From: Sulfuritalea sp. | GTDB lineage: Bacteria; Pseudomonadota; Gammaproteobacteria; Burkholderiales; Rhodocyclaceae | Length of the DNA: 54,624 nt | Direction of reading: 5' to 3' | Assembly: GCA_022843505.1 (NCBI GenBank) | Contig: JALHNN010000001.1 | Span: forward strand, 1-54,624 | Shown: positions 1,374 to 31,135 of the stretch, piece after piece | How the letters are laid out: each line of letters starts with the position of its first letter | How positions within the stretch are numbered: position 1 is the stretch's first letter | The notes under the pieces: model-generated | The model's database searches: none | Seen by the model: only the letters and a program-made list of their open reading frames with translations | Told to the model about the DNA's origin: nothing | Position numbers and translations under genes: made by a program

Positions 1374-2906
1374 TCAGTCTTCGGTAGTTCCAGACTGCAA
1401 CGCGGTGGCCCGCGCCCGGAGGCCGCTCCTGAAGTCGGTCGGGTCAGACGGCTCCGGCTCCTTGGTCGATTTTCCTGCCGAGGTCAGCAGCGATCCGCCC
1501 TTGCCGGTCGTCTTCATCGCCCCCTTGGCCTTGGAAAGCTGCTCCTTGAGTGCCGCCACCTCGCTTTCAAGTGCGCCAACCGTGCGCCGGAGGTGATGGG
1601 CCTCGGCGGCTTCGAGCTTCATCTGGCCGTATTCCAGCGGTGTCGATGGGTGCTTGCCGAGCCCATCGCGGAGCTGTTTGTTGAACTCGTTGGTCTCCTC
1701 GATCTGCTGGCGTTGCTCCGGCGTGGCATTGGCCGGGATTTCCACGTCCTTGAGCCAATCTGTCTTGCTCGTCGTTTCCGCAAGCCAGTTGGAGTATTCC
1801 TCCGCGGCCTTGCGTTCCGCCGCCTGCCTCCCCTCGACGGCAGCCCGCTGCGCGGCTTCCTGCTTCTCGTAGTGCTCTTTGAAATTGGCCGCCTCCTTCT
1901 CCTTGGCGACCCGTGCTTCCTCGGAAAGGAGGCGCTGCTGCCCCATGGCGGTCTTGATGAACTCGGCGTCGTCGAGTGGAATCGCCTGCATCCACGAACG
2001 CGCCAGTTCGGCCGCAGAGCGCGTAACCTGGACGTTCTCCCCGGTGCCGGGATCGACCTCGGTCACAGTGAATTGCTGGGTTGAGCGGCTGAACGGCCCG
2101 AATCCGCCCGCATCGGCAATCGCCTTCATCGTGGCCTGATTCACGAATTTTCCGAGCGTGTCGGCGATTGACTTTTCCGCCCGCGAGATGGGCTCGACAT
2201 ACTTAGCCTTGAAGTCGGGGTCGTTTTCGATTTCGACCCTGCGCCGAAGAATCTGGGCTGTTTGGGTAGCCTCCTCGAACTTCTTCTTCAGTTCGGCATA
2301 TTCTTCGGCGTTAACTGCGGTGGCGGGCTTTTTCCTGGCCTCCTCCAGTTCCCGCCTCGCCTCGGCCACGGCCTCGTCCTTCTTGGCGATCTCGCGCAGG
2401 AAGTGCTTGATTCGCTTGGCCGTTTCCGGCTTGTCGTGGGCAAGCACTTTGCGCTGATCTTCAGGGACATCCTCCTCCTCGGTCTTCTTGGGGGTCTCCT
2501 CTTTTTTCTCGACGGCCGGCGCAGCCTTTTTGTCGTCGGACTTTGGGGGAGCCTTGGCCTTCACCTCAATCACCTTCTCGGGATCTGATTCCTTCTCGGT
2601 CGCAGGGGCCTCCTGCTTTTTCTTCATCATCTCCCGCGCCTTCTCGCCGAACCCATCCAGCGACCGCTCCATGAGCCTCCCCTTGTCATCGCCAATGCGG
2701 AGGGTGTCTTCACGAGGCTCCTTGAAGACCGTTTTCGGGACCTCGGGGGCCGGCGGCTGCGGGTCCAGGGAGGGACGGCTGCTGCCGGCGAGTTCCTGGT
2801 TGAGCTGTTCCGGCGTAATCGGCTTGGCGGACGAGCCCGCTTGGCTCGGTGGAGATGCTTGAGGGGGGGTTGGGTCTGGCATAAGGGGGTTGGGTCTGGT
2901 GCTCAC
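1374..2906 (-). CDS. Coiled-coil, low-complexity protein; probable capsid scaffolding protein
   Basis: 510 aa, E/K/A/P-rich, helical, two genes downstream of the portal (positional inference). Confidence 0.5.
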   Translation of the reverse strand: MSTRPNPLMPDPTPPQASPPSQAGSSAKPITPEQLNQELAGSSRPSLDPQPPAPEVPKTVFKEPREDTLRIGDDKGRLMERSLDGFGEKAREMMKKKQEAPATEKESDPEKVIEVKAKAPPKSDDKKAAPAVEKKEETPKKTEEEDVPEDQRKVLAHDKPETAKRIKHFLREIAKKDEAVAEARRELEEARKKPATAVNAEEYAELKKKFEEATQTAQILRRRVEIENDPDFKAKYVEPISRAEKSIADTLGKFVNQATMKAIADAGGFGPFSRSTQQFTVTEVDPGTGENVQVTRSAAELARSWMQAIPLDDAEFIKTAMGQQRLLSEEARVAKEKEAANFKEHYEKQEAAQRAAVEGRQAAERKAAEEYSNWLAETTSKTDWLKDVEIPANATPEQRQQIEETNEFNKQLRDGLGKHPSTPLEYGQMKLEAAEAHHLRRTVGALESEVAALKEQLSKAKGAMKTTGKGGSLLTSAGKSTKEPEPSDPTDFRSGLRARATALQSGTTED

Positions 2907-3166
2907 GCCTCCATCGGCGGTTCGTCCAGCGTCCTCTCGGACGACGGAAGCCGGGTAAGGACACCGGTCAGATCATTCAGGGCCTCCTGGTATCCGGCCC
3001 ACTTCAGGGACGCCTCCATGATGGCCGCCACGGTGTCTCCCTTGGCGGCTGGACAGTGATTCATCCGCAAAAACATGACCGCCTCCTGAAACCGTGGATC
3101 GCCGGCAATTTGCCGCCACCAAATAATTGTGGTCTTGTCCAGCGTCGGAGCATCCATGGTCGTCAC
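2903..3166 (-). CDS. Small hypothetical protein between portal and scaffold
   Basis: 87 aa ORF overlapping the next gene start; typical podovirus position. Confidence 0.6.
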   Translation of the reverse strand: MTTMDAPTLDKTTIIWWRQIAGDPRFQEAVMFLRMNHCPAAKGDTVAAIMEASLKWAGYQEALNDLTGVLTRLPSSERTLDEPPMEA

Positions 3167-3231
3167 TTACTCTGCGCACGCGGCCTAACGTCGTGTCAAC
3201 CAAAGAATGACAGGCGTGTCAAAATTTTGCA

Positions 3232-5406
3232 TTATCCCGCAAGCTGCTGACCAGAAATTTGCGGAGCGCCTTGCTCGGCGAACTGTTGCTGCTGGGCGGC
3301 GGCCTGCTCCTTGGCCTTTTCCTCCATCGCGCGCTGGTAGCGTGCAAGAGTGGCCTTGGCCTCGTTGATCTGGTCCGGCGGCCACGTCTTTTGGCTCACC
3401 CCAGCGGCGTAGTGCGCGGCCAAATGAGTGAGTCCTGCCACCGCAGCCTGCATGAGCCCTCCGTTGATCGCGTCCTCGATTGGCTTGCCGGCCAGGCCCT
3501 GCCAGTGGACGTAATGGTTGTCCGTGACCACCACCTGCACCGGCTCGCCGGTCACCAGCATGGTCGTATTCTCAATCTGTTGCTGGCGTTGCTGCGCCGT
3601 GATCGTGGTTATGTCCCCATCCGGGACCACAATGCTTTCCACGAAAGAATCTCCGCCCCCGGGGACGCCGGCCGCCATGTAGCGGGCTGCCGCCGACTGG
3701 TTAAACAGGGGGTTCCCCATGACAGACGAGGCAAATTGGGCGCGCTGGCTTGCGGCATACTCGGTGAAGTCGGTAACGCTTTGGATTACCGGCTGATTGA
3801 TCAGAATCTCTATCTCCTCCTCAGTCAGGCTGATCGAAGGGGGAGGCGTGATCTTTTGCAGGATTTTTATACTTTTCCGCAACTTCCTCCAAATCGACGC
3901 GAGCCACCCGGCGTTGTCTCCCAACAATTTTTTGCGAACCCCCTTGGCGTATTCGTCATCGCTGTCTGGATCGAGCATCCGGCTGATCATGGTCCTCACC
4001 ACCAACGCAACCTGCTTCATCCACGCCTCCAGCACATCGCGCTGCGCCTCCTGCTCACGCGCAAGGGCGGCGTTCACCTGAGCGGCCTTTATGTCACTGG
4101 GCTGAAGGGGGATGGGCGGAAGATAATCGCCCACAATTTCTTGCGCCCACTGCGTCATACGGTCATCCAGGGCCAGATAGCCCTCTGACTTGCCCCCCAC
4201 CGCGGCCACGTTTCCAGCGAAGGTAGCCCCGGTGGCGATAATCATGGTGTCGTTCACCACAAGTTGTGCAGTGGCAACGTCTTTTGCGGACGCAACCTGC
4301 AACTTCTGCTTGTTGCTGTTCAGCAGGTTGTCTATCGAGTCGTTCCGCACCCTCTCCACCTGTGCAGCAAGGTCGTAAAGCAGCTGCCCGGCGCCCCAGG
4401 AACCGTGGATCGTGCCGTCCCCATACCCAAACGTCATGGCGACCACAACGTCGTCCGTCCTTTCGTATGCGTCAAGGTGCTCGTAGAGAAGCTGGAACTT
4501 GGTCGGTCCGCTTGGCCACAGAATGTAATGGCTGACCTTACCGTTGAACTCCACAACGTATAAATGCCTGCACTCTATAACCTTGGTGGTTTTTGTGTAA
4601 CTGAAATCCCATGCCTGCTCTCGAATCATCTCCTCCCACTTGCGTAGGTTGCTGTAATCGCTCGGCATTGCCGGAAGACTGGCCGCTTGGACGGCGGCCG
4701 CCACGGCGTCCTTCTGCCAATTCTCGCTTCCGCCCTCGACAGACTTCCGCACGATCTCCAGCAGGACATTGGGCTGGTAATCCCACTTCAGCGTGAACCT
4801 TTGCAGGTTTTCGTCCATGACCTCGGTTCCACGTGGAACGAACCCCCTGTCCATCCGGCATAAGTGCGGTCTCCACTCGTAAGGGTCTGTCCATGAAGCA
4901 AATCCGAACCCGTAATCCACCACCTCGGATGCCAACCCCCGCCAGAACATGTCATTTTTCCGCCATCCACGGATGGCCCGCGTCATTGTGTCCCTAAAAA
5001 ACTGGGTTTTCTTCTGTCCTTCAGGCCATCCGGCCGGAAGTTCGGCGGCCGTCATGGTCGATGCCGTCAGGACCGGCATGTAAAAGCGGGGCGCAGCTCG
5101 ATTCAGCTCCTTTTGCAGGAACCTGGTCGAAAAGTTTCGCTTCCACGCCTTGCCCTGATCCTTGAGATCCTTGTTGTTGTAAGGAGGCGCACCCTGCTTC
5201 TTGGCCGTGATTCTCCTGGCGTTCCTGATCAGGTTTCTCGCGTCCCGAATGTCGGTCTCTGTGAGATTCACCGCAGCATCGACCGAGGTGACCACGCGAT
5301 TGTCCGCCCCCATGGTTTTCTCGTCTACCTCCGGAGACGCGCCGTAGCCGCTCCCTGTCGGAGAAGTGGCAGTGGAAGATGGTAACCGGGAAAGCGGAGT
5401 CTCCAT
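3232..5406 (-). CDS. Probable portal (head-tail connector) protein
   Basis: 724 aa, Q-rich C-terminal tail, 'HGSWGAGQLLYD' segment, position ahead of scaffold-like gene. Confidence 0.65.
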   Translation of the reverse strand: METPLSRLPSSTATSPTGSGYGASPEVDEKTMGADNRVVTSVDAAVNLTETDIRDARNLIRNARRITAKKQGAPPYNNKDLKDQGKAWKRNFSTRFLQKELNRAAPRFYMPVLTASTMTAAELPAGWPEGQKKTQFFRDTMTRAIRGWRKNDMFWRGLASEVVDYGFGFASWTDPYEWRPHLCRMDRGFVPRGTEVMDENLQRFTLKWDYQPNVLLEIVRKSVEGGSENWQKDAVAAAVQAASLPAMPSDYSNLRKWEEMIREQAWDFSYTKTTKVIECRHLYVVEFNGKVSHYILWPSGPTKFQLLYEHLDAYERTDDVVVAMTFGYGDGTIHGSWGAGQLLYDLAAQVERVRNDSIDNLLNSNKQKLQVASAKDVATAQLVVNDTMIIATGATFAGNVAAVGGKSEGYLALDDRMTQWAQEIVGDYLPPIPLQPSDIKAAQVNAALAREQEAQRDVLEAWMKQVALVVRTMISRMLDPDSDDEYAKGVRKKLLGDNAGWLASIWRKLRKSIKILQKITPPPSISLTEEEIEILINQPVIQSVTDFTEYAASQRAQFASSVMGNPLFNQSAAARYMAAGVPGGGDSFVESIVVPDGDITTITAQQRQQQIENTTMLVTGEPVQVVVTDNHYVHWQGLAGKPIEDAINGGLMQAAVAGLTHLAAHYAAGVSQKTWPPDQINEAKATLARYQRAMEEKAKEQAAAQQQQFAEQGAPQISGQQLAG

Positions 5407-6093: not shown

Positions 6094-6145
6094 CGCTTAA
6101 CATCTCGTGTTGCGCTGTCGAGATTTTTATCCAACCTTGGTTTTC

Positions 6146-6730
6146 ATGGACATCCTCCTTTCCGTCCTGGTCCCTTCCCTGCCCGAACGGCTGGACAAAT
6201 TGAGTGAATTGCTCGCGGTCCTCGCAAAGCAGGCCGATCCCCAGTTGGAGGTCATCGCCTTTCTCGACAACCGCGCCCGCCATCTGGGCACGAAGAGAAA
6301 CGACATGATGGACATGGCCGCCGGGCGCTACGTCTGCCACATTGACGACGACGACTCCGTGTCACCGGATTTCTTCAGGACACTGAAGCCCGAACTGGAG
6401 CACGGAGTCGATTTGGTGGCCTACAATGCCGATTGCAGCCTGAACGGCTCGCCGCCGTTTATCGTCCGCACGATCCTTGGTGCGCAGAACGAACAGCCGA
6501 AACACCTGCCCCACGGGCGATTCTCAGACATCATCCGCACGCCATGGCACTGGTGCGCGTGGCGAACCGACTTTGCGCGGGACTTTCGTTTCCCGGATCA
6601 CCACGACGGTGCCGAGGACTGGTTCTTTCTCAAGCAGGCACTGCCCAAGGTGAAGACATGGCGGAAGGTAGAGAAGGTTCTGTTCCATCACCGGTATTGC
6701 CGGGAGCGGACGACGTTTGGGCCGCGGTAA
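6146..6730 (+). CDS. GT2-family glycosyltransferase
   Basis: 'LLSVLVPSLPER...LGTKRNDMMDMAAGRYVCHIDDDD...GAEDWFF'. Confidence 0.85.
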   Translation: MDILLSVLVPSLPERLDKLSELLAVLAKQADPQLEVIAFLDNRARHLGTKRNDMMDMAAGRYVCHIDDDDSVSPDFFRTLKPELEHGVDLVAYNADCSLNGSPPFIVRTILGAQNEQPKHLPHGRFSDIIRTPWHWCAWRTDFARDFRFPDHHDGAEDWFFLKQALPKVKTWRKVEKVLFHHRYCRERTTFGPR

Positions 6731-6731: not shown

Positions 6732-7283
6732 CTAAGGGCTGCGGCCCTCGGGGTCGCCCTTGTTGTTCGGTGAAGGGATGCGGCGCAGTTGGCTATGCCA
6801 GCGCAAGGCACGCAGCGCGGTGTCATCGAGCGGATGGCGAAGCACGTCGAGGCAGTCGGCCAGGCCGTCTGCACATTTCCCAAGCTCGTCGTAGTCCGCA
6901 GTCCGCACGGTCCATCCGTCGAGTTCATGGTCCAGGATTTCGGCGACTAACCGACGGGCCTCGGCGTGCTCGTTCGACATGAGCCAATCGCGGAAGCGGC
7001 CCTCGATTGCGGTCACGATTGTCTCTGCGAGGGCAGAAGCATCCGGAGTGTCCTCTACAGGTCGGACGGCGGAGCTATGTCCCATGACATGATTTCGCAG
7101 TGCTACAGGATCGGCCAACATCGCTCGCACTTCCGACGCCAACACTAGGCCAAACCGCCCAACCAATCGCCCGACACAGCGCTGAATGATGGCAAGCCCC
7201 CGGTCAAGTGCGCTGTATTTGGAACGCCAGCGGTTGTATCTCTGCCACTTCCGGGCGGTTGTGGAAGTTACTCGATTCTTCAT
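6732..7283 (-). CDS. Cassette ORF, hypothetical
   Basis: Ends 'PNNKGDPEGRSP' read through the attC arm; contains 'CVGRLVGR' attC-arm peptide. Confidence 0.6.
   Translation of the reverse strand: MKNRVTSTTARKWQRYNRWRSKYSALDRGLAIIQRCVGRLVGRFGLVLASEVRAMLADPVALRNHVMGHSSAVRPVEDTPDASALAETIVTAIEGRFRDWLMSNEHAEARRLVAEILDHELDGWTVRTADYDELGKCADGLADCLDVLRHPLDDTALRALRWHSQLRRIPSPNNKGDPEGRSP
6735..6771 (+). repeat. attC half-site (L'-R' arm only), array 1 left boundary
   Basis: agggctgcggccctcg-GGGTCG-cccttgtt-GTTCGGT; left arm missing next to the convergent GT gene. Confidence 0.55.
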
Positions 7284-7305
7284 GTTGGTGAATCACTGGG
7301 TCTGC
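7157..7305 (+). repeat. Degenerate attC site
   Basis: GCCCAAC caatcgcccgacac ... TGGTGA atcactg GGTCTGC; arms pair poorly. Confidence 0.45.
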
Positions 7306-7649
7306 GGAAAGATTAGTGCCTCGCTGCCGTCATCGGCCGCAGCGATCATCATCTTGTCGAGGAAGTCGTTCAGCGGGCTGTTGCCCACCTCGTCTTCGCG
7401 GGTCATCGCGCGTCCGACATCCCTCGCCCATGCCTTTCGGCGGCGCGTATCCACTTTGCAGTTGTTGAGTGGGCCACCGTTTCTCCAGTGACTAGCCCAT
7501 GCCAGAGTTCCGACGCCAATCTCGATCACGAGTTTGTTATCGCGGACCACGCACGCAAGCGGCGCAGACCCAGCGCCCACAGCCAACGCCCTAGCGGCGG
7601 ACTTCTTCGAGCGTGGCGTTGCCCGCTCAACATTGGATTTCTTTTTCAT
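7293..7649 (-). CDS. Cassette ORF, hypothetical
   Basis: Start and GGAGG RBS inside attC 7564-7697. Confidence 0.75.
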   Translation of the reverse strand: MKKKSNVERATPRSKKSAARALAVGAGSAPLACVVRDNKLVIEIGVGTLAWASHWRNGGPLNNCKVDTRRRKAWARDVGRAMTREDEVGNSPLNDFLDKMMIAAADDGSEALIFPQTQ

Positions 7650-7697
7650 AGAGTGGTGCCTCCGCTCGCGGGCGTCGGCTGATGCTTATTGTTCGGC
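7564..7697 (+). repeat. attC site
   Basis: GCAGACC cagcgccca CAGCCAACGCCC ... GGGCGTCGGCTGA tgcttatt GTTCGGC. Confidence 0.85.
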
Positions 7698-7991
7698 TTA
7701 AAGGTCACGGGCCATGGCCGCGTCGATGGCGTGGCGGAGTGAGCACCAGTTAGTGCTAGCGAGGATGTCGTCCAGTGTGGCGAGGTTGGATTGCCCGAGG
7801 GCACGATTTTCCAGCCACCTGATTCTGTCCGTGTCGGTGGTCTCTTTCGCCGAACCAGTCGGCACAGCAGCAACGACCTTGATGGGGTCGCGAGATTCGG
7901 GCGGACTGCCTGCGCTCGGGCTGGCCATCGCGTCCAGCATGTCCGCGCAGGCGGCGTGAAATTGATCGGGGGTCTTGATCGGTGTCGTCAT
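7698..7991 (-). CDS. Cassette ORF, hypothetical ('DTDRIRWLE...SLRHAIDAAM' family)
   Basis: Stop TAA abuts R' box; paralog at 31435-31692. Confidence 0.75.
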   Translation of the reverse strand: MTTPIKTPDQFHAACADMLDAMASPSAGSPPESRDPIKVVAAVPTGSAKETTDTDRIRWLENRALGQSNLATLDDILASTNWCSLRHAIDAAMARDL

Positions 7992-8039
7992 TGGGTTGGC
8001 GGGTTTACGTTCTGGTCGTGGCTGACCTCCGTGTTCGGA
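7849..8039 (+). repeat. attC site (191 bp, long coding loop)
   Basis: GCCGAAC cagtcggca CAGCAGCAACGACC ... GGTCGTGGCTGA cctccgt GTTCGGA. Confidence 0.8.
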
Positions 8040-8378
8040 TTAGTAGAGGTTTTCACTGTAGAGTGTGCCGGGGACGCTTACCTGCTCGCGGATTTGTCCG
8101 GTCGTCTCGGCTCTCTTCCACGCGGTCTCGCGGTCCAAGAATTTGCCCCGGATGTCGATGAAGCCCTGTTCCTTTACCCGGCGGTGATAGCCGTCCCCGT
8201 AGATGCGGTGCAGCGTGGCCCGCATGTCGGGCGAGAAGTGGCGCACGCCAGCGACGATCAAGCCGTCATCCATCAGCATCGCGGCGGACACGATGCGATC
8301 CGAACCAGACGCCAGACCATCAATGACGGCCCGCGAGACGGCAGGGAGAGATTCGGGGCTTTGGAGTGGGGCCGTCAT
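8040..8378 (-). CDS. Cassette ORF, conserved small phage protein ('RIVSAA...GVRH...EQGFID..GKFLDRETAW...LYSENLY')
   Basis: Recognisable widespread phage hypothetical motif pattern. Confidence 0.8.
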   Translation of the reverse strand: MTAPLQSPESLPAVSRAVIDGLASGSDRIVSAAMLMDDGLIVAGVRHFSPDMRATLHRIYGDGYHRRVKEQGFIDIRGKFLDRETAWKRAETTGQIREQVSVPGTLYSENLY

Positions 8379-8399
8379 GAGGTCAGCTTAGTGTTCGGC
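8299..8399 (+). repeat. attC site
   Basis: TCCGAAC cagacgcca GACCATCAATGACGGCCC ... GGGCCGTCATGAGGTCA gcttagt GTTCGGC; ATGA start/stop overlap lies in the stem. Confidence 0.9.
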
Positions 8400-8818
8400 G
8401 AAATACGCACTTCGCTCGGGTGGCCATACTTTTGCCATACGGGCACTGGTTTGTCCCCTAATGGCTCTAGCACTTCGCGCAGTCGCTTCATGTCTTTCGA
8501 GTCCGCCACGCCTTCGTCGTAGGTCTGGCAGTAATTGTCGATGGATGCCCGGTATCGACCGATTTCCGCGTGAAGATGCGCCTTTTCTCGTTCGTCTTTG
8601 GCAATTGCTGCGTCCATTTTTTCAAGCGTCTGTATCGCGCGGAATAGCGTCAGCGTTACCGGGTGCTGATTTGCACGAAATTCGGCAGCCCACTCGCGGA
8701 GGTTATCCACAAGATAAGGCACGCCGAACAAGCGATCAGAGCCAACGCTGACAGCGGCTCCTTGGTTTTCGATAGTTGGATTTGTATTCATGGGTTGAGA
8801 GTAGTTCTGCGCTGTCAT
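8375..8818 (-). CDS. Cassette ORF, hypothetical
   Basis: Begins within attC ('VSVGSDRLFG'), ends 'PNTKLTS'. Confidence 0.75.
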   Translation of the reverse strand: MTAQNYSQPMNTNPTIENQGAAVSVGSDRLFGVPYLVDNLREWAAEFRANQHPVTLTLFRAIQTLEKMDAAIAKDEREKAHLHAEIGRYRASIDNYCQTYDEGVADSKDMKRLREVLEPLGDKPVPVWQKYGHPSEVRISPNTKLTS

Positions 8819-8842
8819 CGTGGCTCACTCGCAGGGTTCGGC
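8723..8842 (+). repeat. attC site
   Basis: GCCGAAC aagcgatca GAGCCAACGCTGACAGCG ... CGCTGTCATCGTGGCTCA ctcgcagg GTTCGGC. Confidence 0.92.
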
Positions 8843-9234
8843 GTAAGAAGAGCGCGAATGTCGTCGGCGTAGTCTGCCAGCCGCGCACCGCTCTTTGTGC
8901 GCTCGGCCTCTTCCAGCGCGTAGCGCAGTCGGTCGAAGTTGGGTGCCGTGCCAGTCATGCGCGCTTCGATGGCTCTCCATGTCGGCTCGTATTCAGGCCA
9001 GTCAGATTCGACCACCACGCATTGCAGTAGGCTCTTACCTTCGAGCTTCCGCCCACAGGCCACCGTGCTTCCGAGACTGCGGAGTTTGTCCCATTCCACA
9101 CGCGACAGGTGCTTGCGGGCGTCGCTGAGTTTGACGACGAAGTATCTCGGCTCGCGAGCGAACGCCGAACCCACGGCCACAGCACAACCGGCGCGCTCGT
9201 CCGGCTTGCGATCATTTTCAGTTGGATTTTGCAT
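8815..9234 (-). CDS. Cassette ORF, conserved phage protein ('FAREPRYFVVKLSD...CVVVESDWPEYEPTW')
   Basis: Widespread phage hypothetical motif; ends 'PNPASEPR'. Confidence 0.8.
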   Translation of the reverse strand: MQNPTENDRKPDERAGCAVAVGSAFAREPRYFVVKLSDARKHLSRVEWDKLRSLGSTVACGRKLEGKSLLQCVVVESDWPEYEPTWRAIEARMTGTAPNFDRLRYALEEAERTKSGARLADYADDIRALLTPNPASEPR

Positions 9235-9288
9235 AGAGTGTTGGCGCGGCTTTAGCCCCGCGCCGGTGGCTGATCCGAACCGTTAGCC
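9164..9288 (+). repeat. attC site
   Basis: GCCGAAC ccacggcca CAGCACAACCGGCGCG ... CGCGCCGGTGGCTGA tccgaacc GTTAGCC. Confidence 0.92.
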
Positions 9289-10059
9289 GAAAGACATCAT
9301 GCGTTGTTGCTGACGCTTGGCCGCAATTTCGCAGTATTCCTCGGAAAGTTCGATGCCGATGGCGTAGCGTCCGAGTTCTCGCGCGGCCTGTAGCGTGGTT
9401 CCGCTGCCCATGAACGGATCGAGCACCGTCATTCCTTCCACGCTCACGCTCGCCATGAGGCGTTTCCACGCGCCAAGCGGCTTCACGCACGGATGGCCGT
9501 TCTTCTCTGGTGTTTCCGTCAGCGTGTAGCTGCATGGTGTGCCGAAGTTCCGCTTCGTCGGGTTTTTGCCGTAGTAGAGGATCGGTTGCGCGTCGAGGTT
9601 GCCCCACGTTTGCAGCCCGACGGCTGCCGGTTGGTAGTAGCACCCGAAGCTGTCCGGCTGCGGATAGCGCATCATGTTCGTGTTCCCCGGCGTCACGACA
9701 GTTGGCCATTTGGCCACGCATCGGCGGATCACGTCCGCCACCACGTCGCGGATATATTCCGGCGTGTCATCGAAGTCGCTCGTGTAGTTTCCCCGCCCGC
9801 GGTTCGTGCTCATGCTGCCACGTCCGCCGTGGATGCCATAGGGCGGGTCAGTCATCACGAGATGGCACTTCATTTCGTCCAGCACTTCGCGGCAGTCCGC
9901 GTGATAGATGGCGCACCATTCATCACGGTAGTAGAGGCTCCTCGAAGAAAGACCGGCTAACCAGTCGCCAGAGCCAACGCCGACAGCGGCCCGAGGTTTC
10001 TCGGGAGTCTGTCCGGCGTCGGATGCCAGTTGAAATTTTGCGCTGTCGGCGTGGCTCAT
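9283..10059 (-). CDS. DNA N4-cytosine/N6-adenine methyltransferase (beta class), carried as a cassette
   Basis: 'TDPPYG' catalytic motif, 'HPCVKP', 'VLDPFMGSGTT', 'IGIELSEEYC'; stop TAA inside GTTAGCC box. Confidence 0.92.
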   Translation of the reverse strand: MSHADSAKFQLASDAGQTPEKPRAAVGVGSGDWLAGLSSRSLYYRDEWCAIYHADCREVLDEMKCHLVMTDPPYGIHGGRGSMSTNRGRGNYTSDFDDTPEYIRDVVADVIRRCVAKWPTVVTPGNTNMMRYPQPDSFGCYYQPAAVGLQTWGNLDAQPILYYGKNPTKRNFGTPCSYTLTETPEKNGHPCVKPLGAWKRLMASVSVEGMTVLDPFMGSGTTLQAARELGRYAIGIELSEEYCEIAAKRQQQRMMSFG

Positions 10060-10072
10060 CTAGGTGTTGGGC
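9955..10072 (+). repeat. attC site
   Basis: GGCTAAC cagtcgcca GAGCCAACGCCGACAGCG ... CGCTGTCGGCGTGGCTCA tctaggt GTTGGGC. Confidence 0.95.
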
Positions 10073-10302
10073 GAAGAGATGCCGTCGTTATCGGCGAGGT
10101 CTTGCACGAGCTGCTTGAGCAGCGAGGCAGGCACACGCACCGCGTCTGCGTGGTTCACTTTCAGCGTGATGTAGGCCAGCGGATTGTCGTCGAAGTATCC
10201 GCGACCCGAGTAGGATTTGGTGTAGGTGGTCGCTGTGGGCGCAGACGCGCCCAACCCGCCAGTCGAGCCAACGCTCACAGTCTGTCCTTTTTCGGTAGTC
10301 AT
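10060..10302 (-). CDS. Cassette ORF, hypothetical
   Basis: ATG 10302 with GGAG RBS in attC loop; ends 'SPNT*' directly before the MTase ATG. Confidence 0.7.
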   Translation of the reverse strand: MTTEKGQTVSVGSTGGLGASAPTATTYTKSYSGRGYFDDNPLAYITLKVNHADAVRVPASLLKQLVQDLADNDGISSPNT

Positions 10303-10359
10303 AATTACGCTCCGTCTTTTTTGGTGTTCGAGTGAGCGCGGCTCACTTCCATGTTCGGC
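10249..10359 (+). repeat. attC site
   Basis: GCCCAAC ccgccagtc GAGCCAACGCTCAC ... GTGAGCGCGGCTCA cttccat GTTCGGC. Confidence 0.92.
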
Positions 10360-10703
10360 AGAATCACGATGCTGTTCGAGATGCCGTCCCACGCGGCCAT
10401 CTGGTAGCCGCTGGCGTTGCCATCGATTTCACCGTCCACGATGTCGCGGAAGTGTGCGGCGATGTTCCACACCTTGTAGGCTGGAAAGTAGAAGGCGCGC
10501 AGCGGTTTCGCGTCCTTGAAGATTTCGATTAGCGCGTCCTGTTTGCGCGGCTCCTTGAGGTAGCTTGCGCGCACAGTGTAGCCGCGATCCGGTTCCTTGG
10601 ACTCGAAGGCAATCGAGTCGATCAAAGAGCCGAACGAGGGGCCAGACCCAACGAGCACAGCGGCTCCTTGGTCGGCGGTAGTGGGTTCTGTATTCGTGTC
10701 CAT
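10305..10703 (-). CDS. Cassette ORF, hypothetical
   Basis: MDTNTEP...'VLVGSGPSFG'...'PNMEVSRAHS'. Confidence 0.75.
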   Translation of the reverse strand: MDTNTEPTTADQGAAVLVGSGPSFGSLIDSIAFESKEPDRGYTVRASYLKEPRKQDALIEIFKDAKPLRAFYFPAYKVWNIAAHFRDIVDGEIDGNASGYQMAAWDGISNSIVILPNMEVSRAHSNTKKDGA

Positions 10704-10747
10704 AGAGTTATTTGCGCTGTGCTCGCGGGTCATCCCCGGTGTTGGGC
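10629..10747 (+). repeat. attC site
   Basis: GCCGAAC gaggggcca GACCCAACGAGCACAGCG ... CGCTGTGCTCGCGGGTCA tccccggt GTTGGGC. Confidence 0.92.
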
Positions 10748-10980
10748 CTCGTCCGCCGCAGGAGCCGACCATAGCCATGCAGGCGCTCTCCGACTGTGCA
10801 TGTGGCGGGGATTTTGCTCGGCCACCACATATCGCCGTGCCTTATGACCGTGCCGTTTTTCACAGGCTTCCAGCCTCGGGGGTAGTCGGGCGGACGAGGC
10901 CCAACCAGCCGACCACAGCGAACGCCCTTCATGCGGCCTTTCTTCGTGGATGGCGTTCTACGCTCGTGTGATGTTTTCAT
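10708..10980 (-). CDS. Cassette ORF, small basic hypothetical
   Basis: 'VRCGRLVGP' start-arm peptide, 'PNTGDDPR' end-arm peptide. Confidence 0.7.
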   Translation of the reverse strand: MKTSHERRTPSTKKGRMKGVRCGRLVGPRPPDYPRGWKPVKNGTVIRHGDMWWPSKIPATCTVGERLHGYGRLLRRTRPNTGDDPRAQRK

Positions 10981-11035
10981 AGTTCAAAGGGTTTCACGTC
11001 CGCCCTCGGGCGTCCGCTGATTCGGATTGTTAGCG
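10899..11035 (+). repeat. attC site
   Basis: GCCCAAC cagccgacca CAGCGAACGCCC ... GGGCGTCCGCTGA ttcggatt GTTAGCG. Confidence 0.9.
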
Positions 11036-11398
11036 AAGCCAGCGTGCGGTTGTGCCATCGCGCAGAGTGAGCGTGTCGCCGCACGACATGACGACTTCCC
11101 CTGATTCAAGTTCCACGCGCTCGCCGTTCGGCAGTTCTGCGCGGTATTTTCCGCCGTTCCACTTCGGAAGGTTTACTTGCTCCGGGTGCTCGATGTAGCC
11201 TACTGCCCACCAGTGGTGTCCGCCATCCGAGATTTCCATGAGCACGTTGTCGCTTATCGCGAAGTGCGAGAAGTCGGGTTGCTTGCCGTATCGCTGCACG
11301 ATTTCGAGGGCGAGCAGTTCTTCGGTAGTCTCGAACGGGACCGCTGTCGGATGGTCCACGTCGCAGAATGATGGGATGTGTTGTTTGAATGAGTTCAT
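11030..11398 (-). CDS. Cassette ORF, hypothetical (ORF open to 11485)
   Basis: MNSFKQHIPSFCD...; stop TAA inside GTTAGCG box. Confidence 0.75.
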   Translation of the reverse strand: MNSFKQHIPSFCDVDHPTAVPFETTEELLALEIVQRYGKQPDFSHFAISDNVLMEISDGGHHWWAVGYIEHPEQVNLPKWNGGKYRAELPNGERVELESGEVVMSCGDTLTLRDGTTARWLR

Positions 11399-11410
11399 AA
11401 GAATGAAAGA

Positions 11411-11499
11411 CGCTAACAAGCGATTAGAGACAACGCGGGGACTGGCCGCTTTCTGCATTCGGGGCCAGAGGGCCGCGTGTCTCACTCGCGATGTTCAGG
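11411..11499 (+). repeat. attC site
   Basis: CGCTAAC aagcgatta GAGACAACGCGG ... CCGCGTGTCTCA ctcgcgat GTTCAGG. Confidence 0.9.
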
Positions 11500-11711
11500 G
11501 AAATCGGTTCGTGCTTTTCGCAGGTGCTGTCTTCAGGGCGCCAGTCGATTTTATCTTTCACCAGTTCGCACCATCCCATGATGCGGCCCGAAAGTTGCAT
11601 GGTCTTCGTTGGCACGGATGGCATCCCCCAGTGTCTGCATGAGAAGCACCGGGGACGCCGAGCCCCCGGATCAATCGGCAGAGCCAACGCTCCATGTTCA
11701 TGTGTTTTCAT
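11424..11711 (-). CDS. Anchor cassette ORF, Cys-rich (CxxCxxW...C...C), possibly metal-binding
   Basis: ATGA-coupled to VRR-NUC; only a degenerate R''-L'' arm (ccggatc aatcggca GAGCCAACGC, 11666-11690). Confidence 0.65.
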   Translation of the reverse strand: MKTHEHGALALPIDPGARRPRCFSCRHWGMPSVPTKTMQLSGRIMGWCELVKDKIDWRPEDSTCEKHEPISLNIASETRGPLAPNAESGQSPRCL

Positions 11712-17203: not shown

Positions 17204-17644
17204 TCAGAAGCGTGGGTTAGGGTTCCAGTATTCGCACAGCATTGAGTCCGTGTCCTCGTTGGGATCTTCGGGGTCGGCAATGTCGCCGGCCTCGTGAAAC
17301 TTGGCCCCGTTCCGGATCATGTCTTCGACTTGGTTGACGTGGCGATAGTGGTTCGACTCGCCCAGGGGTGCCCCGGCGAGCAGCTCCCGGATTTCGTCGG
17401 CGATAAGTTCGCGCTCCAGTTGGGGCAGTCCGTCGAGCAAGCCGCTCGGCTCAAAGTCGCGCGCAACCGCCGTCAGATCGTAACTTGGCGTGAATTCGCA
17501 AAGGTGCGCGTGCAGATTGCGGTTGAATCCGTAAACGGTTTGCACGCTGGACAGGTAGGGCTTGAGCTTGTCCGGGATGGTCCAGTCGGACGTATCTTTG
17601 ATGCCGATGAAGCACCAGTTAGGGGCGGGGGTGGTGGTGTTCAT
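17204..17644 (-). CDS. Hypothetical early protein
   Basis: MNTTTPAPNWCFIG..., ATGA coupled. Confidence 0.65.
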   Translation of the reverse strand: MNTTTPAPNWCFIGIKDTSDWTIPDKLKPYLSSVQTVYGFNRNLHAHLCEFTPSYDLTAVARDFEPSGLLDGLPQLERELIADEIRELLAGAPLGESNHYRHVNQVEDMIRNGAKFHEAGDIADPEDPNEDTDSMLCEYWNPNPRF

Positions 17645-17967
17645 GGGTGGTCGGCCCCTCCGGCTTTGGCTATGGCGGTGCGGGCGGAGTCGATTGTGCG
17701 TTGAACGCATGTAGTATTAGTGCCATCATGGAATTGCCCGACGACAAGCGACAGCGTATCTTTCAGCGCAGCCAACAAATCGGGCGCGGCGGCAATGAGG
17801 CGGGCGTCGGCTTCGGCGTTCGCTTCCTTCACGATGCAGTGGTCATTCGCAGCTTCATCGGAATAGATTCCGAATTGAGGCGAGTGCTCCGGGGTGGCGT
17901 GCTTGCTTATTGCCCACGGCCCTGGCGTGTGTTCGGACGTATTGGAGTTGTTGATTAGGCTGTTCAT
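17641..17967 (-). CDS. 'TPGPW...ARLIAAAPDLL' family small phage protein
   Basis: HTPGPW, EADARLIAAAPDLLAALK, ARTAIAKA. Confidence 0.8.
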   Translation of the reverse strand: MNSLINNSNTSEHTPGPWAISKHATPEHSPQFGIYSDEAANDHCIVKEANAEADARLIAAAPDLLAALKDTLSLVVGQFHDGTNTTCVQRTIDSARTAIAKAGGADHP

Positions 17968-18023
17968 GATATGCGCGCGGTTCCGCAGTGGTTGGTGGTG
18001 ATGTTTGATTTTGATGGTCATGG

Positions 18024-22229: not shown

Positions 22230-22515
22230 TTTGTTACACTTTTTACACTTCCGTTCAGAGCGCCGCTTCCTGTTTTACAATTACTGATTAAACCGATTAA
22301 ATTGATTTTTCTCGTTAAACTGCAACGTTAAACCCCATTTAACCCCCTCCAGGGGGGGTTAAAAGAGTGGGGTTTAACGAAAAAAACAATCGATAGTTAA
22401 AAGAGGGGTTAAAAGAGTTTAAAGAGGGTACTAAAAATAAAGGAGAACAGCCTACGCGGGCTAATTTTTTGACCCTAGTTTGATGATAGGGGCGAAGCCC
22501 TATTGGCACTAGGGT
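22230..22515. other. Putative replication origin: AT-rich, inverted repeats, short direct repeats
   Basis: CGTTAAACCCCA...TGGGGTTTAACG hairpin (22326-22379), repeated TTAAAAGAG/TTAAAGAG, hairpin 22472-22515; ~200 bp downstream of the helicase gene. Confidence 0.55.
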
Positions 22516-22725: not shown

Positions 22726-24444
22726 TTACCCAGCCCCTAGCGCCTTGCGATAGACCATCGGTCGGCCTTCCTCGGCGATGATCTCGACGTGGCCCTGCTC
22801 GGCCCAGCGTTTCAGGCAGTTGTGGAGGACGCCTTGGGAGATGGGCTTGTTGGGGCTGAGGGTGCGCTGGAGGACGGAAATGGGCAGACCGTCGCTGGTG
22901 TGCTTCGGGAAGACGTTGGCGTAGTCCTCGAACGAGTACTTCTCGGGGCGGCCGCCGGCTTGGCGCTGCGGGGGCCTTTCCTTGGGTGCCTCGGCGTCAA
23001 CCTCCCGCGGCTCCCAGAATATCTTGGCGATGCCGCCGGCCACGCCGGGCACGTCGATGAACCCCGAGCAGTGCTTCAGCGGGATCGTGGTGAGGGGTTC
23101 CAGCCGCCAGCCAGTCCCCTGCGGAACCTTGCGCGTGACGCCGGCCCGCTTGCCGCGCTTGGCCAGGACCAGGTTGAATTCCCCCTCGTTCTCGGCGGCG
23201 CGCAGGGAGATGATCGCCCGGGCCCAGTTGATGATCTCCGCCCCGCCGGCCATGTCATACATGACCTCGTGCCAGAGCCGCTGCGCCCGCTCCTTGCCCG
23301 TGGCCGGCTTGGTCGTGTGATGGACCACCATGTAACCGAAGGCGGGCGGCTGGTTCAGGGAATTGAGCTGCTCACGCAGGAATTCACCCAGATCCTTGGA
23401 GTCAGTCACGTCGCCTTGGATGAACGCTTGCAGGGGATTGATCCACACCAGGTCCGGCCGGTGCCGCGCTATGAGCGCCTTCAGCACCTTGATGAAGGCC
23501 GGGCCCCGGGCTACGCGCTCCGTGTGGACAAAGACCTTGCTGTCCACCGCGGCAATCTGGTCCGCCGCCAGGTTCAACTCATGCTTGATCGAAAGGGCCA
23601 CTTCACCGATGTCCCCGTCCGAATCCTCGGACTGCACGATCAGACTGGAAAGCGATCCGTTGCCCTGGATGCCGAAGGGGCCCCGGTTGAGCGCCAGCTC
23701 AATCGCCATCTGGATCGCCATCGCACTCTTGCCCATGCCCGAGGTGGAGACCAGCACGGCCGAGTCCCCCCGGTTCAGATACCGCTTCCCCAACAGGATC
23801 GAGGCGTGCCCGTCCGGGGGGATTTCGTAGGAGAAAATCGGCCGGCTGTCGGTCTGCGCCGGGGCGGTGGTGGCAATCCGCGCCAGATCGTCCCGGGCCC
23901 GGACGATCAGCTCCTCCGGCTGCGCGTTGCCCCGCGCCCCCTCGATCATCGCCGTGCCCACCTTGATGGCCTCGCGCAGGGCCGCCAACCGCCTCACCTC
24001 TCCAATGAAGTACCCGGCGTAGACCGTGGTGGGCGCCCCGCCGGTAATGGTTATCAGATTGGACATTCCGCCGACAACCTCCAGCATGTTCCGGTTGATC
24101 AGATGCTGGACCAGCACCTCCAGGCAGACCGGCTGCCGGGCCTTGGCCAGATCGAGGAGGGCGTGGTAGATCAGGCGGTGGGCCGGCAGAAAGAACGCCT
24201 CGGGGGTGAGCCCTTCGGACCGGGCGGCGTCCAGCGAGACGCCCTCGTCCAGCAAACAGCAGGCCAAAACGTGGCGCTCGGCTTCCTCACTGGCGGGGAC
24301 GGTGGGGGGGAGGGGCGGGGGGGCGGGCTTTCTGACGATGGGCGCGGGATGGGGACGGGGCGCAACGACCCTCACGACGGGCGCGGGCTCCGCCCATGGC
24401 TCGGGCGCCTCATCGATGATCAGCTCCTCGTCGGAGTCGTTCAC
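22726..24444 (-). CDS. Replicative helicase-like: DnaB N-terminal domain plus RecA-type AAA (RepA/AAA_25) ATPase
   Basis: 'PASEEAERHVLACCL...FFLPAHRLIY' DnaB-N; Walker A 'STSGMGKS'; 'SEDS'; 'VVHHTTK'. Confidence 0.8.
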   Translation of the reverse strand: MNDSDEELIIDEAPEPWAEPAPVVRVVAPRPHPAPIVRKPAPPPLPPTVPASEEAERHVLACCLLDEGVSLDAARSEGLTPEAFFLPAHRLIYHALLDLAKARQPVCLEVLVQHLINRNMLEVVGGMSNLITITGGAPTTVYAGYFIGEVRRLAALREAIKVGTAMIEGARGNAQPEELIVRARDDLARIATTAPAQTDSRPIFSYEIPPDGHASILLGKRYLNRGDSAVLVSTSGMGKSAMAIQMAIELALNRGPFGIQGNGSLSSLIVQSEDSDGDIGEVALSIKHELNLAADQIAAVDSKVFVHTERVARGPAFIKVLKALIARHRPDLVWINPLQAFIQGDVTDSKDLGEFLREQLNSLNQPPAFGYMVVHHTTKPATGKERAQRLWHEVMYDMAGGAEIINWARAIISLRAAENEGEFNLVLAKRGKRAGVTRKVPQGTGWRLEPLTTIPLKHCSGFIDVPGVAGGIAKIFWEPREVDAEAPKERPPQRQAGGRPEKYSFEDYANVFPKHTSDGLPISVLQRTLSPNKPISQGVLHNCLKRWAEQGHVEIIAEEGRPMVYRKALGAG

Positions 24445-25715: not shown

Positions 25716-25940
25716 TTAGGTTGATGGAACGGAATCCGTCTCGAAACCGTGCTCAGTCACGCGGCACCCCGATGGGTCAGTCAGAAGACCAAGCGCGGAC
25801 TCTGCTGCTTGCTTCGTGTGAAACCGGCACGCGCTGTTTGCGTCGAATGTCCAAGCGAGTAACCCCTCGTAGAAATTCACGTATACAGGGGCCGATATAG
25901 GCCCCGCCTCGATTAGCCACAGAAAGGCGGTAGTGCTCAT
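25716..25940 (-). CDS. IS passenger, small phage-type hypothetical ('WLIE...WT.D...A.RF...TEHGF')
   Basis: ATGA coupled; motif pattern. Confidence 0.7.
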   Translation of the reverse strand: MSTTAFLWLIEAGPISAPVYVNFYEGLLAWTFDANSACRFHTKQAAESALGLLTDPSGCRVTEHGFETDSVPST

Positions 25941-26230
25941 AGGTCTCTCGCTTTGGCAAGGGCTGCGCGGGCCGCCTGCCAGACTTCCTCGCCTCGCGAT
26001 GTGCGCCCCGTGTCCATCGTGTGAACCTCGAAATAGTTCGCCAGGGCATACAGTGCGGTATGCAGCTCGGGAGCGGCGGCAATGAGCTGCGCGTCGGGCG
26101 CGTGCTGAACGTGTGCGACGACAAAGTTATTGATCGAGCCGGGCGTTGGGTCCAAGGGCGACCAGACCTCAATAGCGAAACCGTCTTGGGCTTGAGTCCG
26201 CCACGGTCCTTTCGTGGGTTGGTCACTCAT
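25937..26230 (-). CDS. IS passenger, 'TPGPW...LIAAAPEL' family
   Basis: TKGPW...DAQLIAAAPEL...ARAALAKA. Confidence 0.8.
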   Translation of the reverse strand: MSDQPTKGPWRTQAQDGFAIEVWSPLDPTPGSINNFVVAHVQHAPDAQLIAAAPELHTALYALANYFEVHTMDTGRTSRGEEVWQAARAALAKARDL

Positions 26231-26547
26231 GACTGGCCCTCCGCCTTGGCGATTGCGTCGCGCAGAGCTTCCCACTCTAGATAAGAGGCAGGCTCTTTTG
26301 CCGGGTCAGGGATGCGATTACAGAACCCCTGAAACGCGAGGCGCGCAGCTTGCAGCAGGTCCGGAGCGGCGGAGATCAGTGAGGCATCGGCACGGTTGGC
26401 GGCGCGCGCCTCTTCGGACATGTCGCTCTGACAAACCGCTACCGTTGCATATGACTCACGAGCCTCAATGGCGATCAAGCGACCATCATGGAATACGTTG
26501 GCGGTCCACGGGGCTGGAGTGAATCTGGTGAATTTAGGTGTTTTCAT
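26227..26547 (-). CDS. IS passenger, 'TPGPW...LIAAAPDLL' family
   Basis: FTPAPW...ADASLISAAPDLL...RDAIAKAEG. Confidence 0.8.
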   Translation of the reverse strand: MKTPKFTRFTPAPWTANVFHDGRLIAIEARESYATVAVCQSDMSEEARAANRADASLISAAPDLLQAARLAFQGFCNRIPDPAKEPASYLEWEALRDAIAKAEGQS

Positions 26548-26559
26548 ACACACGAGACA

Positions 26560-26607
26560 GTGCACTGGGTGCACTGCATTGCAAGATAAATGTTGCACTC
26601 AGTGCAC
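26560..26607. promoter_or_regulatory. Two palindromic operator-like sites in a divergent intergenic region
   Basis: GTGCAC-tgg-GTGCAC (26560-26574) and TTGCAC-tca-GTGCAC (26593-26607). Confidence 0.6.
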
Positions 26608-26626: not shown

Positions 26627-26818
26627 ATGACCTTTGCTGAGAAGCTAAAGCCGTGGACGGCGAATAAGCTGATGGAAGTGATCGGCGTTCCGCGCCGAAC
26701 GGCTTATGCGTGGAAATCTGGCGAGAAGATCGCACCCGGTTGGGTGCAGGCGCTCGTCCTCTTCCGACTGAAATACGTGAAACCCGACAATGCTGAACCT
26801 CGACGCGCTGAAGGTTGA
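26627..26818 (+). CDS. Small Cro-like HTH protein overlapping the transposase start
   Basis: 'ANKLMEVIGVPRRTAYAWKSG...P..WVQ'. Confidence 0.7.
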   Translation: MTFAEKLKPWTANKLMEVIGVPRRTAYAWKSGEKIAPGWVQALVLFRLKYVKPDNAEPRRAEG

Positions 26819-28118: not shown

Positions 28119-28234
28119 GTCCTGAAGCGCCCGGCTCAACGACGCGCAGCCGACCGGATGCGGTGGTTTCTCAGCCGCCGGCGCATTACGGGCGACATCG
28201 TGTAGGCGGGAACGTTCTGTGCGTCGTCGCTCAT
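28119..28234 (-). pseudogene. 5' part of IS-interrupted gene
   Basis: ATG 28234 one base after the upstream stop; in-frame TGA at 28136-28138. Confidence 0.65.
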
Positions 28235-28235
28235 C

Positions 28236-28532
28236 TTAATCGTTGGCGGGTTTCTGCATCACCCACGCCGCCAGCATTTCGTATTTCCGGCCATCGCCAT
28301 CCCAGGCAAATCCGATGGCCGGCTCGCCGCGAGCCAACGCCGCCTGGAATGCCTCGGCGAGTTCGGCCTCCGCATCGAACCACCGGACATACATCCCGGC
28401 ACGGAGGGACAGCAGGCAGTAGGGGCGCGTCACCTGCTCGGGAATGGGAACGTTTCGTTGCAGGGTCGTGCGGCCGGAGATGGTGAAACCCGGGCCGTGA
28501 TCCGGGAAAGAGGCGTCAAGCGCATGGGGCAT
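28236..28532 (-). CDS. Hypothetical, first gene of leftward replication operon
   Basis: MPHALDASFPD... Confidence 0.6.
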   Translation of the reverse strand: MPHALDASFPDHGPGFTISGRTTLQRNVPIPEQVTRPYCLLSLRAGMYVRWFDAEAELAEAFQAALARGEPAIGFAWDGDGRKYEMLAAWVMQKPAND

Positions 28533-28640
28533 AAAAAAATCCTTTCCGCCGCCACCCGCTTGGAACAAAACATCAGCTCGCGGTAGAAAGATACGTGATG
28601 CCGGTGGCGACTTGTTGAGTTGTGCCGAGGCAATTTTCGG

Positions 28641-28690
28641 CGTCAACCCCGAAATGAAGATTGACAGGACTTAATTTTTCGCAACAGTTC
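28641..28690. promoter_or_regulatory. Divergent promoter pair
   Basis: TTGACG on minus (28641-28646) and TTGACA on plus (28661-28666), between divergent operons; -10 boxes non-canonical. Confidence 0.45.
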
Positions 28691-30290: not shown

Positions 30291-30304
30291 TGGATTGGTT
30301 CAGC
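30245..30304 (-). repeat. attC site (60 bp)
   Basis: plus: GTCCAAC aacccgg TCAGCGGCGCGGC gaa GCCGCGTTCGCTG tagtggattg GTTCAGC. Confidence 0.95.
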
Positions 30305-30312
30305 TCTTTCTA

Positions 30313-31131: not shown

Positions 31132-31135
31132 CTTT

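What the first reader, a model, noticed from the sequence alone, without database searches (positions are those of the whole stretch)
6732..11711. Phage-borne integron-type cassette array 1, with about 10 attC sites and no integrase
Seen: 12 short ORFs separated by imperfect palindromes with attC anatomy. These are R'' (e.g. GGCTAAC), ~9 nt, a GAGCC/CAGCC-AACG arm, a variable loop, a CGT-GGCTCA/GGCTGA arm, 7-8 nt and R' (GTTSRRY), mostly with an unpaired A in the left arm. Known: this matches integron attC structure, and attC clusters without intI are called CALINs. Integrons are known mainly from chromosomes and plasmids. Inference: the phage uses a shufflable cassette system for its accessory genes, including a DNA methyltransferase and typical phage hypotheticals rather than host defence or resistance genes. 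I cannot check the literature, but I do not know this as a described phage system.
Basis: partly seen in the sequence, partly recalled or inferred. Interest (0 to 1): 0.95.

Follow-up and report, generated by a model that had tools for sequence, protein, structure and literature searches.

The report
Phage integron array with reversed genes
This phage carries a row of ten small genes, each bounded by an integron-type recombination hairpin and found elsewhere next to different neighbours, but every gene runs backwards compared with textbook integron cassettes and likely starts inside the hairpin, and the phage likely borrows the shuffling enzyme it no longer encodes.

Summary
There are ten complete attC sites (7563-11499) and two half sites. 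In 10 of 10 cassettes R'' pairs 7/7 with the cassette's own left core, the mark of circular cassettes. Three cassettes recur in other metagenomes with new neighbours and ends at the G|TT crossovers.

The finding does not mention the main feature: all genes lie on the attC bottom strand, have an in-frame ATG inside their own attC, and often end in the next attC beside the next start. Across sampled arrays of this attC family, phage cassettes score 85 antisense against 7 sense; bacterial ones 20 against 113.

The window has no intI, only a degenerate attI-like site. Related phages carry the same layout with a full or truncated intI, so this is most likely a phage integron that lost its integrase.

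Phage CALINs, some with methyltransferases, are published (Qi et al. 2023), so the kind is known. I found no paper describing the reversed layout. This scan has noted it before on other DNA. Recombination and translation starts are untested. Verdict: new variant of a known kind.

The parts
7284..7302 (+). attI-like site, degenerate; inferred crossover G|TC between 7300 and 7301
   Evidence: Shares AAT(C/T)AC with the sites between intI and the first cassette in five phage loci. A motif drawn after seeing it matches twice in the window against 0.07 expected. A gapless attI profile does not score it. Pieces in four runs end at 7297-7299.
7301..7691 (+). cassette 1: attC 7563-7697 with covarying non-standard cores (R'' CGCAGAC, own R' GTCTGCG); gene 7293-7649 on -, 118 aa
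   Evidence: the same unit in runs X3, X6, X13, X14
7692..8033 (+). cassette 2: attC 7849-8039 (191 nt); gene 7698-7991 on -, 97 aa
8034..8393 (+). cassette 3: attC 8299-8399; gene 8040-8378 on -, 112 aa, PHROG 839
8394..8836 (+). cassette 4: attC 8723-8842; gene 8375-8818 on - (alternative ATG at 8791)
   Evidence: the same unit in L026 and runs X6, X8, X11, X17
8837..9282 (+). cassette 5: attC 9164-9288; gene 8815-9234 on -, 139 aa, PHROG 7810
   Evidence: one contig of run X8 skips this unit (short side 27 bases)
9283..10066 (+). cassette 6: attC 9955-10072; DNA methyltransferase gene 9283-10059 on -, 258 aa, ATG in the L' box
   Evidence: PF01555 E 7e-23
10067..10353 (+). cassette 7: attC 10249-10359; gene 10060-10302 on -, 80 aa
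   Evidence: the same unit in run X3
10354..10741 (+). cassette 8: attC 10629-10747; gene 10305-10703 on -, 132 aa
   Evidence: a 70% identical protein lies in the IntI-linked array of G008
10742..11029 (+). cassette 9: attC 10899-11035; gene 10708-10980 on -, 90 aa
11030..11493 (+). cassette 10: attC 11411-11499; gene on - from 11458 or 11398 to 11030
11494..11711 (+). decayed distal cassette: left arm only at 11665, R'' degenerate; gene 11424-11711 on -, its ATG overlapping the stop of the VRR-NUC gene
6732..7283 (-). 183-aa ORF in the place where relatives carry intI; not an integrase; contains a lone attC left arm at 7157
   Evidence: hhalign probability 0.6%

Best explanation
This is a row of ten integron-type cassettes in a phage, with genes on the attC bottom strand, and it is likely a phage integron that lost its integrase gene and is likely still recombined at G|TT by an IntI supplied from outside the array. 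Shown: attC anatomy and polarity, circle-type core pairing, the same units beside other neighbours in other metagenomes, no intI in the window, and full or truncated intI beside the same layout in related phages. Inferred steps: (1) IntI excises a cassette by attC x attC recombination of folded bottom strands and reinserts the circle at an attC or attI, in this or another phage. (2) The enzyme would come from the host or from a co-infecting IntI-bearing relative. (3) The genes would be transcribed with the phage's replication and recombination operon from the attI-distal end, not from a Pc promoter. (4) The attC loop would supply the start codon and a short leader for its own gene and, in one fixed frame, the tail and stop of the gene upstream, so reshuffled cassettes would often stay translationally coupled.
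For: Core pairing: R'' is 7/7 complementary to the cassette's own left R' in 10 of 10 and to the next R' in 1 of 10 (permutation p 1.3e-5). The four variable bases match the own R' in 85 of 110 viral and 168 of 206 bacterial cassettes, and the next R' in 18 of 110 and 40 of 206. Mobility: cassette 4 sits inside a 2,508-base contig of X11 with 2 differences and other flanks on both sides, and in L026 the match stops right after GTT. Cassette 1 (four runs) and cassette 7 (one run) match end to end. Orientation by codon score: window 12 antisense, 0 sense, 1 unclear of 13; viral 73, 7, 30 of 110; bacterial 20, 113, 73 of 206. Starts: an ATG open in the gene's frame lies inside attC in 52 of 74 long sites against 25 expected. 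Among 120 homologs plus the query for cassette 8, 90 of 121 start within 12 residues of the core, while the window's copy has a 27-residue attC-derived leader. Ends: 48 of 48 genes that read into the next attC use AAC as a codon (21 loci). Integrase: 3 of 30 records pass the TIGR02249 cut-off, 2 more score 212 bits, and 1 has a truncated intI. G008 has IntI, replication proteins 36-53% identical to the window's, and a relative of cassette 8. Cargo: homologs in 260, 102 and 997 phage records for three genes, and no protein match between 117 phage and 206 bacterial cassette bodies.
Against: No recombination assay, circle or transcript was seen. The two full holders may be the source sample, and the one of them that I laid showed no variant. 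The attI-like site is degenerate and fails a gapless profile. The only precise-deletion joint has a 27-base side at 85% likeness, which the tool flags as weak. A stop coupled to an ATG was found in only 27 of 48 read-through junctions. The in-frame AAC bias also appears in bacterial sense cassettes (25 of 33), so it is not special to phages. GTG or TTG starts inside the bodies are not excluded. Thirty of 110 viral and 73 of 206 bacterial cassettes could not be oriented. Folding energy does not favour the bottom strand consistently (4 of 10). The host is uncertain: the attC family points to Opitutaceae, while the bin's own IntI falls outside that group.
Confidence: 0.72

Rival explanations
1. 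Frozen relic: the array was built by IntI in an ancestor that had the gene, and in this phage it no longer recombines site-specifically. It now changes only by homologous exchange with relatives or by deletion.
For: No intI on the contig. Degenerate attI-like site and decayed half sites at both ends. A relative has a truncated intI. No variant in the one full holder laid.
Against: All ten internal cassettes keep perfect core pairing. One unit differs by only 2 of 450 bases from a copy in another context. Seven of 12 near-complete records found by this attC motif have no integrase match at all, which suggests arrays persist without their own enzyme.
Confidence: 0.18
2. The repeats are phage gene-boundary sequences or terminator-like hairpins that promote modular exchange by phage homologous recombination. 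Their likeness to attC is inherited but not used by an integrase.
For: Whole attC modules are shared between different gene bodies, with breakpoints at R'', which exchange in the conserved left arm could give. The phage has exonuclease genes next to the array.
Against: Homologous exchange does not explain why R'' pairs with the cassette's own left core rather than with the core it folds with in the array. Relatives carry intI and attI in the standard divergent place.
Confidence: 0.07
3. The array is a block of a host chromosomal integron picked up by the phage.
For: The attC arms belong to the family found beside intI in Opitutales genomes. Qi et al. describe such capture in Vibrio prophages.
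Against: Host arrays of this family are mostly sense, with an ATG in the body (96 of 113). No shared proteins. The window's attCs match bacterial ones only over 33-49 bases of the left arm, but match viral ones over nearly their full length in 4 of 10 cases.
Confidence: 0.03

Closest known systems
CALINs and integrons in phage genomes (Qi et al. 2023, PMC9892861)
   Same: attC clusters without intI in phages; methyltransferase cargo; 5 of 6 tested phage attCs recombined with IntI1.
   Different: Published phage CALINs list 2-4 sites, against 10 here plus a second array. TJE1 is canonical, with genes on the top strand. The text I read does not describe reversed genes, starts inside attC, or a phage-specific cassette pool. 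One of its CALINs, MW202573, looks reversed by my model, without comment in the text; its figures and Dryad file were not seen.
Sedentary chromosomal integrons of Opitutales / Verrucomicrobiota (loci L055, L063, L073, L090, L129)
   Same: Same attC arm family, an AAT-AC-type attI, the same own-core pairing and the same in-frame AAC bias at gene ends.
   Different: Genes are mostly sense with their own ATG, the IntI is longer (reading frames about 445-520 aa) and forms a separate branch, and no cargo is shared.
Classical integron (class 1 IntI1/attI1/attC; strand selection as in Nivina et al. 2016, PMC5027507)
   Same: R''-L''-loop-L'-R' hairpin with extrahelical bases on the 3' arm of the bottom strand, and a G|TT crossover. 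The attC polarity relative to attI is normal.
   Different: The gene, not the attC, is reversed, so it faces attI and cannot use Pc. Nivina et al. state that cassettes inserted facing the promoter have not been observed; that refers to whole-cassette inversion, which is a different geometry.

Membership tests
attC site / integron gene cassette | R''-L''-variable loop-L'-R' imperfect palindrome with extrahelical bases, folding on the bottom strand | tested here: met
attC site / integron gene cassette | R'' complementary to the cassette's own left core (circular form) | tested here: met
   10 of 10 at 7/7
attC site / integron gene cassette | Unit found in other contexts with boundaries at G|TT | tested here: met
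   cassettes 1, 4 and 7; the other seven were not found whole at the DNA level
attC site / integron gene cassette | Recombined by an IntI | not testable with these tools
   needs the attC x attI or excision assay
attC site / integron gene cassette | Passes IntegronFinder or HattCI models | not testable with these tools
   not available; a home-built model was used instead
canonical (promoter-facing-away) cassette | ORF on the top strand, starting after G|TT and ending at R'' | tested here: not met
   all genes are on the bottom strand
CALIN | At least two attC sites in a cluster with no intI nearby | tested here: met
   about 5.4 kb of the phage is not in the window
complete integron | intI next to the array | tested here: not met
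   met in relatives G001, G008 and G027
complete integron | attI at the head of the array | tested here: inconclusive
   degenerate attI-like site at 7284-7302
complete integron | Pc promoter driving the cassettes from the attI side | not tested
   no promoter scan was run; the genes face attI, so a Pc could not express them

The most novel reading that the evidence does not exclude
A lineage of phages runs its own mirror-image integron system. It has a phage-only pool of accessory-gene cassettes, made repeatedly by joining ordinary phage genes, minus their start codon, to attC sites that act as portable start, leader and coupling modules. These are shuffled by phage-encoded IntI, or by borrowed IntI after loss of the gene. 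Because the same attC turns up on different genes and the same gene family behind different attCs, these arrays would record cassette creation in progress and make the open question of cassette genesis testable.
Probability: 0.5. Interest if true: 0.88.

Novelty: new variant of a known kind. Interest (0 to 1): 0.72.

Why it matters
Integrons are treated as bacterial devices, and phage attC sites have been read as a route for moving bacterial cassettes. Here the cargo is the phage's own accessory genes, including an orphan methyltransferase of the kind thought to protect against restriction. That points to phages using single-strand site-specific recombination to vary their gene content. The reversed layout, with the hairpin doubling as a translation start and coupler, is a design I did not find in print. 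Cassette-less homologs of the same genes give before-and-after pairs for studying how cassettes are made. Tools that assign a gene to the attC downstream of it will mis-draw these cassettes.

Tried and rejected
Rfam: no match. A search of viral contigs with the neighbouring exonuclease found no relative. blastn of the array against cultured phages gave four 39-54 base matches only. ORF 6732-7283 as an intI remnant: a Y-x-x-W-x-x-K-Y likeness near its start is not significant (hhalign 0.6%, E 0.099), rejected. One clade of phage IntIs with reversed arrays: not supported; 6 rows need 5 changes and no bootstrap tree has them together (34 of the 58 IntI hits were used, duplicates and partial ones left out, stops read as X). 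Defence cargo: PADLOC matched only the methyltransferase, plus one marginal HerA hit. Host assignment: 8 of 20 relatives of the bin have some match to my attC model, inconclusive. Replication-strand bias from GC skew: no clear switch at the presumed origin, so the lagging-strand idea stays inference. No RNA holder was listed, which says nothing about expression. A PDB sequence search of the 724-aa structural candidate found nothing. Literature: ten searches returned no paper on reversed phage cassettes; most subscription journals are outside the library.
Full report
Setting. The window is the whole contig C1 of a 597-contig assembly. It is a phage by gene content: helicases, exonucleases, VRR-NUC, a 1,743-aa LPD38 protein, and head and tail PHROGs. 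A contig of 60,051 bases holds the same DNA, so about 5.4 kb is probably missing from the window (inferred, assuming a circle). That run may be the source of this DNA and is not independent support.

The sites. Ten complete attC-like sites and two lone left arms lie between 7157 and 11694. Polarity was fixed in two ways. First, the unpaired bases sit in the left arm of the + strand, as in the aadA7 site printed in Qi et al. Table S3, so + is the top strand. Second, a covariance model from 39 bacterial sites (86% of cells paired, 0 of 500 shuffles as high) hits five array sites, all on the - strand, two of them at E below 0.01. It misses the other five and was built from short sites. The profile found 15 paired sites in the window, against none in 15 of 20 shuffles and at most 3. 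Both models descend from loci found with a window-derived motif, so they are not fully independent for detection.

They bound cassettes. In an integron array, R'' pairs best with the core at the cassette's own left end, because the two meet in the circle (established knowledge). That holds at 7/7 in 10 of 10 cassettes, against 1 of 10 for the next core (permutation p 1.3e-5). Cassette 1 shows it with a compensatory GAC/GTC change. I laid 8 of the 21 listed runs. Cassette 4 appears in X6, X8, X11 and X17; cassette 1 in X3, X6, X13 and X14; cassette 7 whole in X3. Their ends fall within a few bases of the crossovers, except the X17 piece, which stops at 8827. Some of these ends are contig ends, but in X11, X14 and X3 the unit is internal, with other sequence on both sides. 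The seven non-source runs come from seven studies. In L026 cassette 4 follows a different attC, and the match stops just after GTT. One X8 contig joins 8835 to 9282, a precise loss of cassette 5, but its short side is 27 bases and the tool warns against such joints. The other seven cassettes were not found whole at the DNA level.

The genes are reversed. All twelve ORFs are on the bottom strand. All ten cassette genes have an in-frame ATG inside their own attC; only two (8040 and 11030) also have one within 15 codons past R'' (read; GTG and TTG not excluded). Six genes read into the next attC, all with AAC in frame, and five of these stop within 4 bases of the next ATG.

The layout is general. 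After removing duplicate bodies, a codon score trained on window genes called 12 antisense, 0 sense and 1 unclear of 13 window cassettes; 73, 7 and 30 of 110 viral; and 20, 113 and 73 of 206 bacterial. Kin are not independent, so the contrast, not a p value, is the result. L020 and L038 are exceptions among the viral loci, with near-identical 89-base sites and apparently sense genes; they were left out. In long phage sites an open ATG lies in the gene's frame in 52 of 74, against 25 expected. All 48 of 83 antisense genes that read through R' use AAC as a codon. Without any coding score, that frame is open in 90 of 117 phage cassettes against 37 and 35 for the others, while bacterial antisense frames are even (74, 81, 64 of 206). 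Against over-reading: only 27 of the 48 stops are coupled to an ATG, and bacterial sense genes show the mirror bias (25 of 33). The first in-frame stop is coupled to an open ATG in 56 of 107 phage sites and 11 of 151 bacterial sites.

The cargo. Three genes have homologs in 260, 102 and 997 cultured-phage records. PHROG 7810 begins matching at residue 25, just past the attC-encoded part. For cassette 8, 90 of 121 sequences (the best 120 of 208 homologs plus the query) start within 12 residues of the core. A minority carry longer leaders, several resembling other attC arms by eye, which suggests repeated capture (inference). No protein match links 117 phage and 206 bacterial cassette bodies. 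Conversely, one attC occurs on different bodies: 8723 in X13 and X14, 9164 in L026, X8 and X17, 9955 in L035. Top-strand recombination, homologous exchange in the left arm, or creation on a common template could each give this; I cannot separate them.

The integrase. There is none on C1. The bin has an IntI on contig C282 (446 bits), but it falls outside the Opitutales branch, and the bin shows this attC family only on C1 and on C177, which looks like another phage fragment. The phage may therefore be mis-binned. Of 30 viral records tested, three pass the TIGR02249 cut-off, two near-duplicates score 212 bits, one has a truncated intI, one has only a weak recombinase match, and 23 have none. 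In those with intI, the gene is divergent from the attC top strand as in any integron, which makes it co-directional with the reversed genes, at the end of the operon. In L051 glycosyltransferase-like genes converge on it, as one does at 6107-6730 here. G008 shares replication proteins at 36-53% and a relative of cassette 8, and has two opposed arrays with one intI. The window keeps an attI-like site at 7284-7302, which a gapless profile does not score, and an unrelated ORF stands where intI would be.

Mechanism. The best reading is a phage integron that lost intI and is served in trans (0.72), ahead of a frozen relic (0.18), boundary repeats (0.07) and a captured host block (0.03). Why reversed? 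The genes run with the phage operon, so no Pc is needed. If replication ran both ways from the AT-rich palindrome at 22314-22423, both arrays would have their bottom strands on the lagging template, which favours folding and excision (Loot et al. 2017, PMC5371416, passages). GC skew does not confirm that origin, so this is inference only.

What is known. Qi et al. 2023 (PMC9892861): I read parts 1-4 of 7, which cover the main text, and part 1 of 2 of the supplement; the figures and Dryad file were not seen and could show orientation. Nivina et al. 2016 (PMC5027507): passages and one section. PMC8946536, PMC8352920 and bioRxiv 10.1101/2022.09.11.507474: passages. Jacquier et al. 2009 on translation control by attC: seen only as a reference title. 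That isolated reversed ORFs occur in chromosomal arrays is my recollection, from no call. TJE1 is canonical. MW202573 appears reversed by my model (one hit at E 9e-4, two weak). Ten searches found no description of the reversed layout. Earlier notes of this scan report it in many other genomes (103 findings matched my words); they are unchecked leads, not support.

Verdict. A real, mobile cassette array; a new variant of a known kind; interest 0.72.

Noticed in passing
window 29165-32061: A second, mirror-image array: six complete attC sites with top strand on - and genes on + (including DUF5131), plus half sites at 29165 and 32032. Own-core pairing is 7/7 in 4 of 6. The three short sites (58-66 bases) have genes with their own ATG in the body.
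   Followed up: partly
window 28219-28248: A lone attC right arm on the + strand at the end of ORF 28236-28646.
   Followed up: no
window 26790-28091: An ISL3-family transposase between the two divergent gene blocks.
   Followed up: no
window 22314-22423: AT-rich nested inverted repeats beside the DnaB-like helicase gene; a possible replication origin. GC skew gives no clear switch.
   Followed up: partly
window 17641-18021, 25937-26275, 26227-26598: Three paralogs of PHROG 1273.
   Followed up: no
window 23811-23906: An ARAGORN tRNA-Asp call lies inside the helicase gene on the opposite strand; probably spurious.
   Followed up: no
window 52640-52920: A two-copy 141-base repeat (76% identical) in the 508-aa gene.
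   Followed up: no
G000:C177:2861-4199: Another contig of the bin, apparently a phage fragment, with three or four attC sites of the same family, reversed genes and a related glycosyltransferase.
   Followed up: partly
G000:C282: The bin's IntI lies next to three further tyrosine recombinase genes in a row; it resembles a recombinase-in-trio element (name recalled).
   Followed up: no
L026:7008-7132, L035:1368-1486, L016/L043, L037/L052, runs X8, X13, X14, X17: Near-identical attC modules on unrelated gene bodies, with the match starting at R''. Unexplained.
   Followed up: partly
L063, L090, L055, L119: Bacterial attCs of this family often have GAT/ATC in place of GTT/AAC at the crossover core.
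   Followed up: no
L020, L038: Viral contigs with near-identical 89-base attCs and apparently sense genes, beside weak homologs of the window's structural proteins: possible phages with host-type arrays.
   Followed up: no
L315 (MW202573) 2069-3739: A published phage CALIN whose genes appear to lie on the attC bottom strand.
   Followed up: partly
L308:477-992 (G004): A complete phage with only the first ~90 residues of intI left beside a reversed array.
   Followed up: yes
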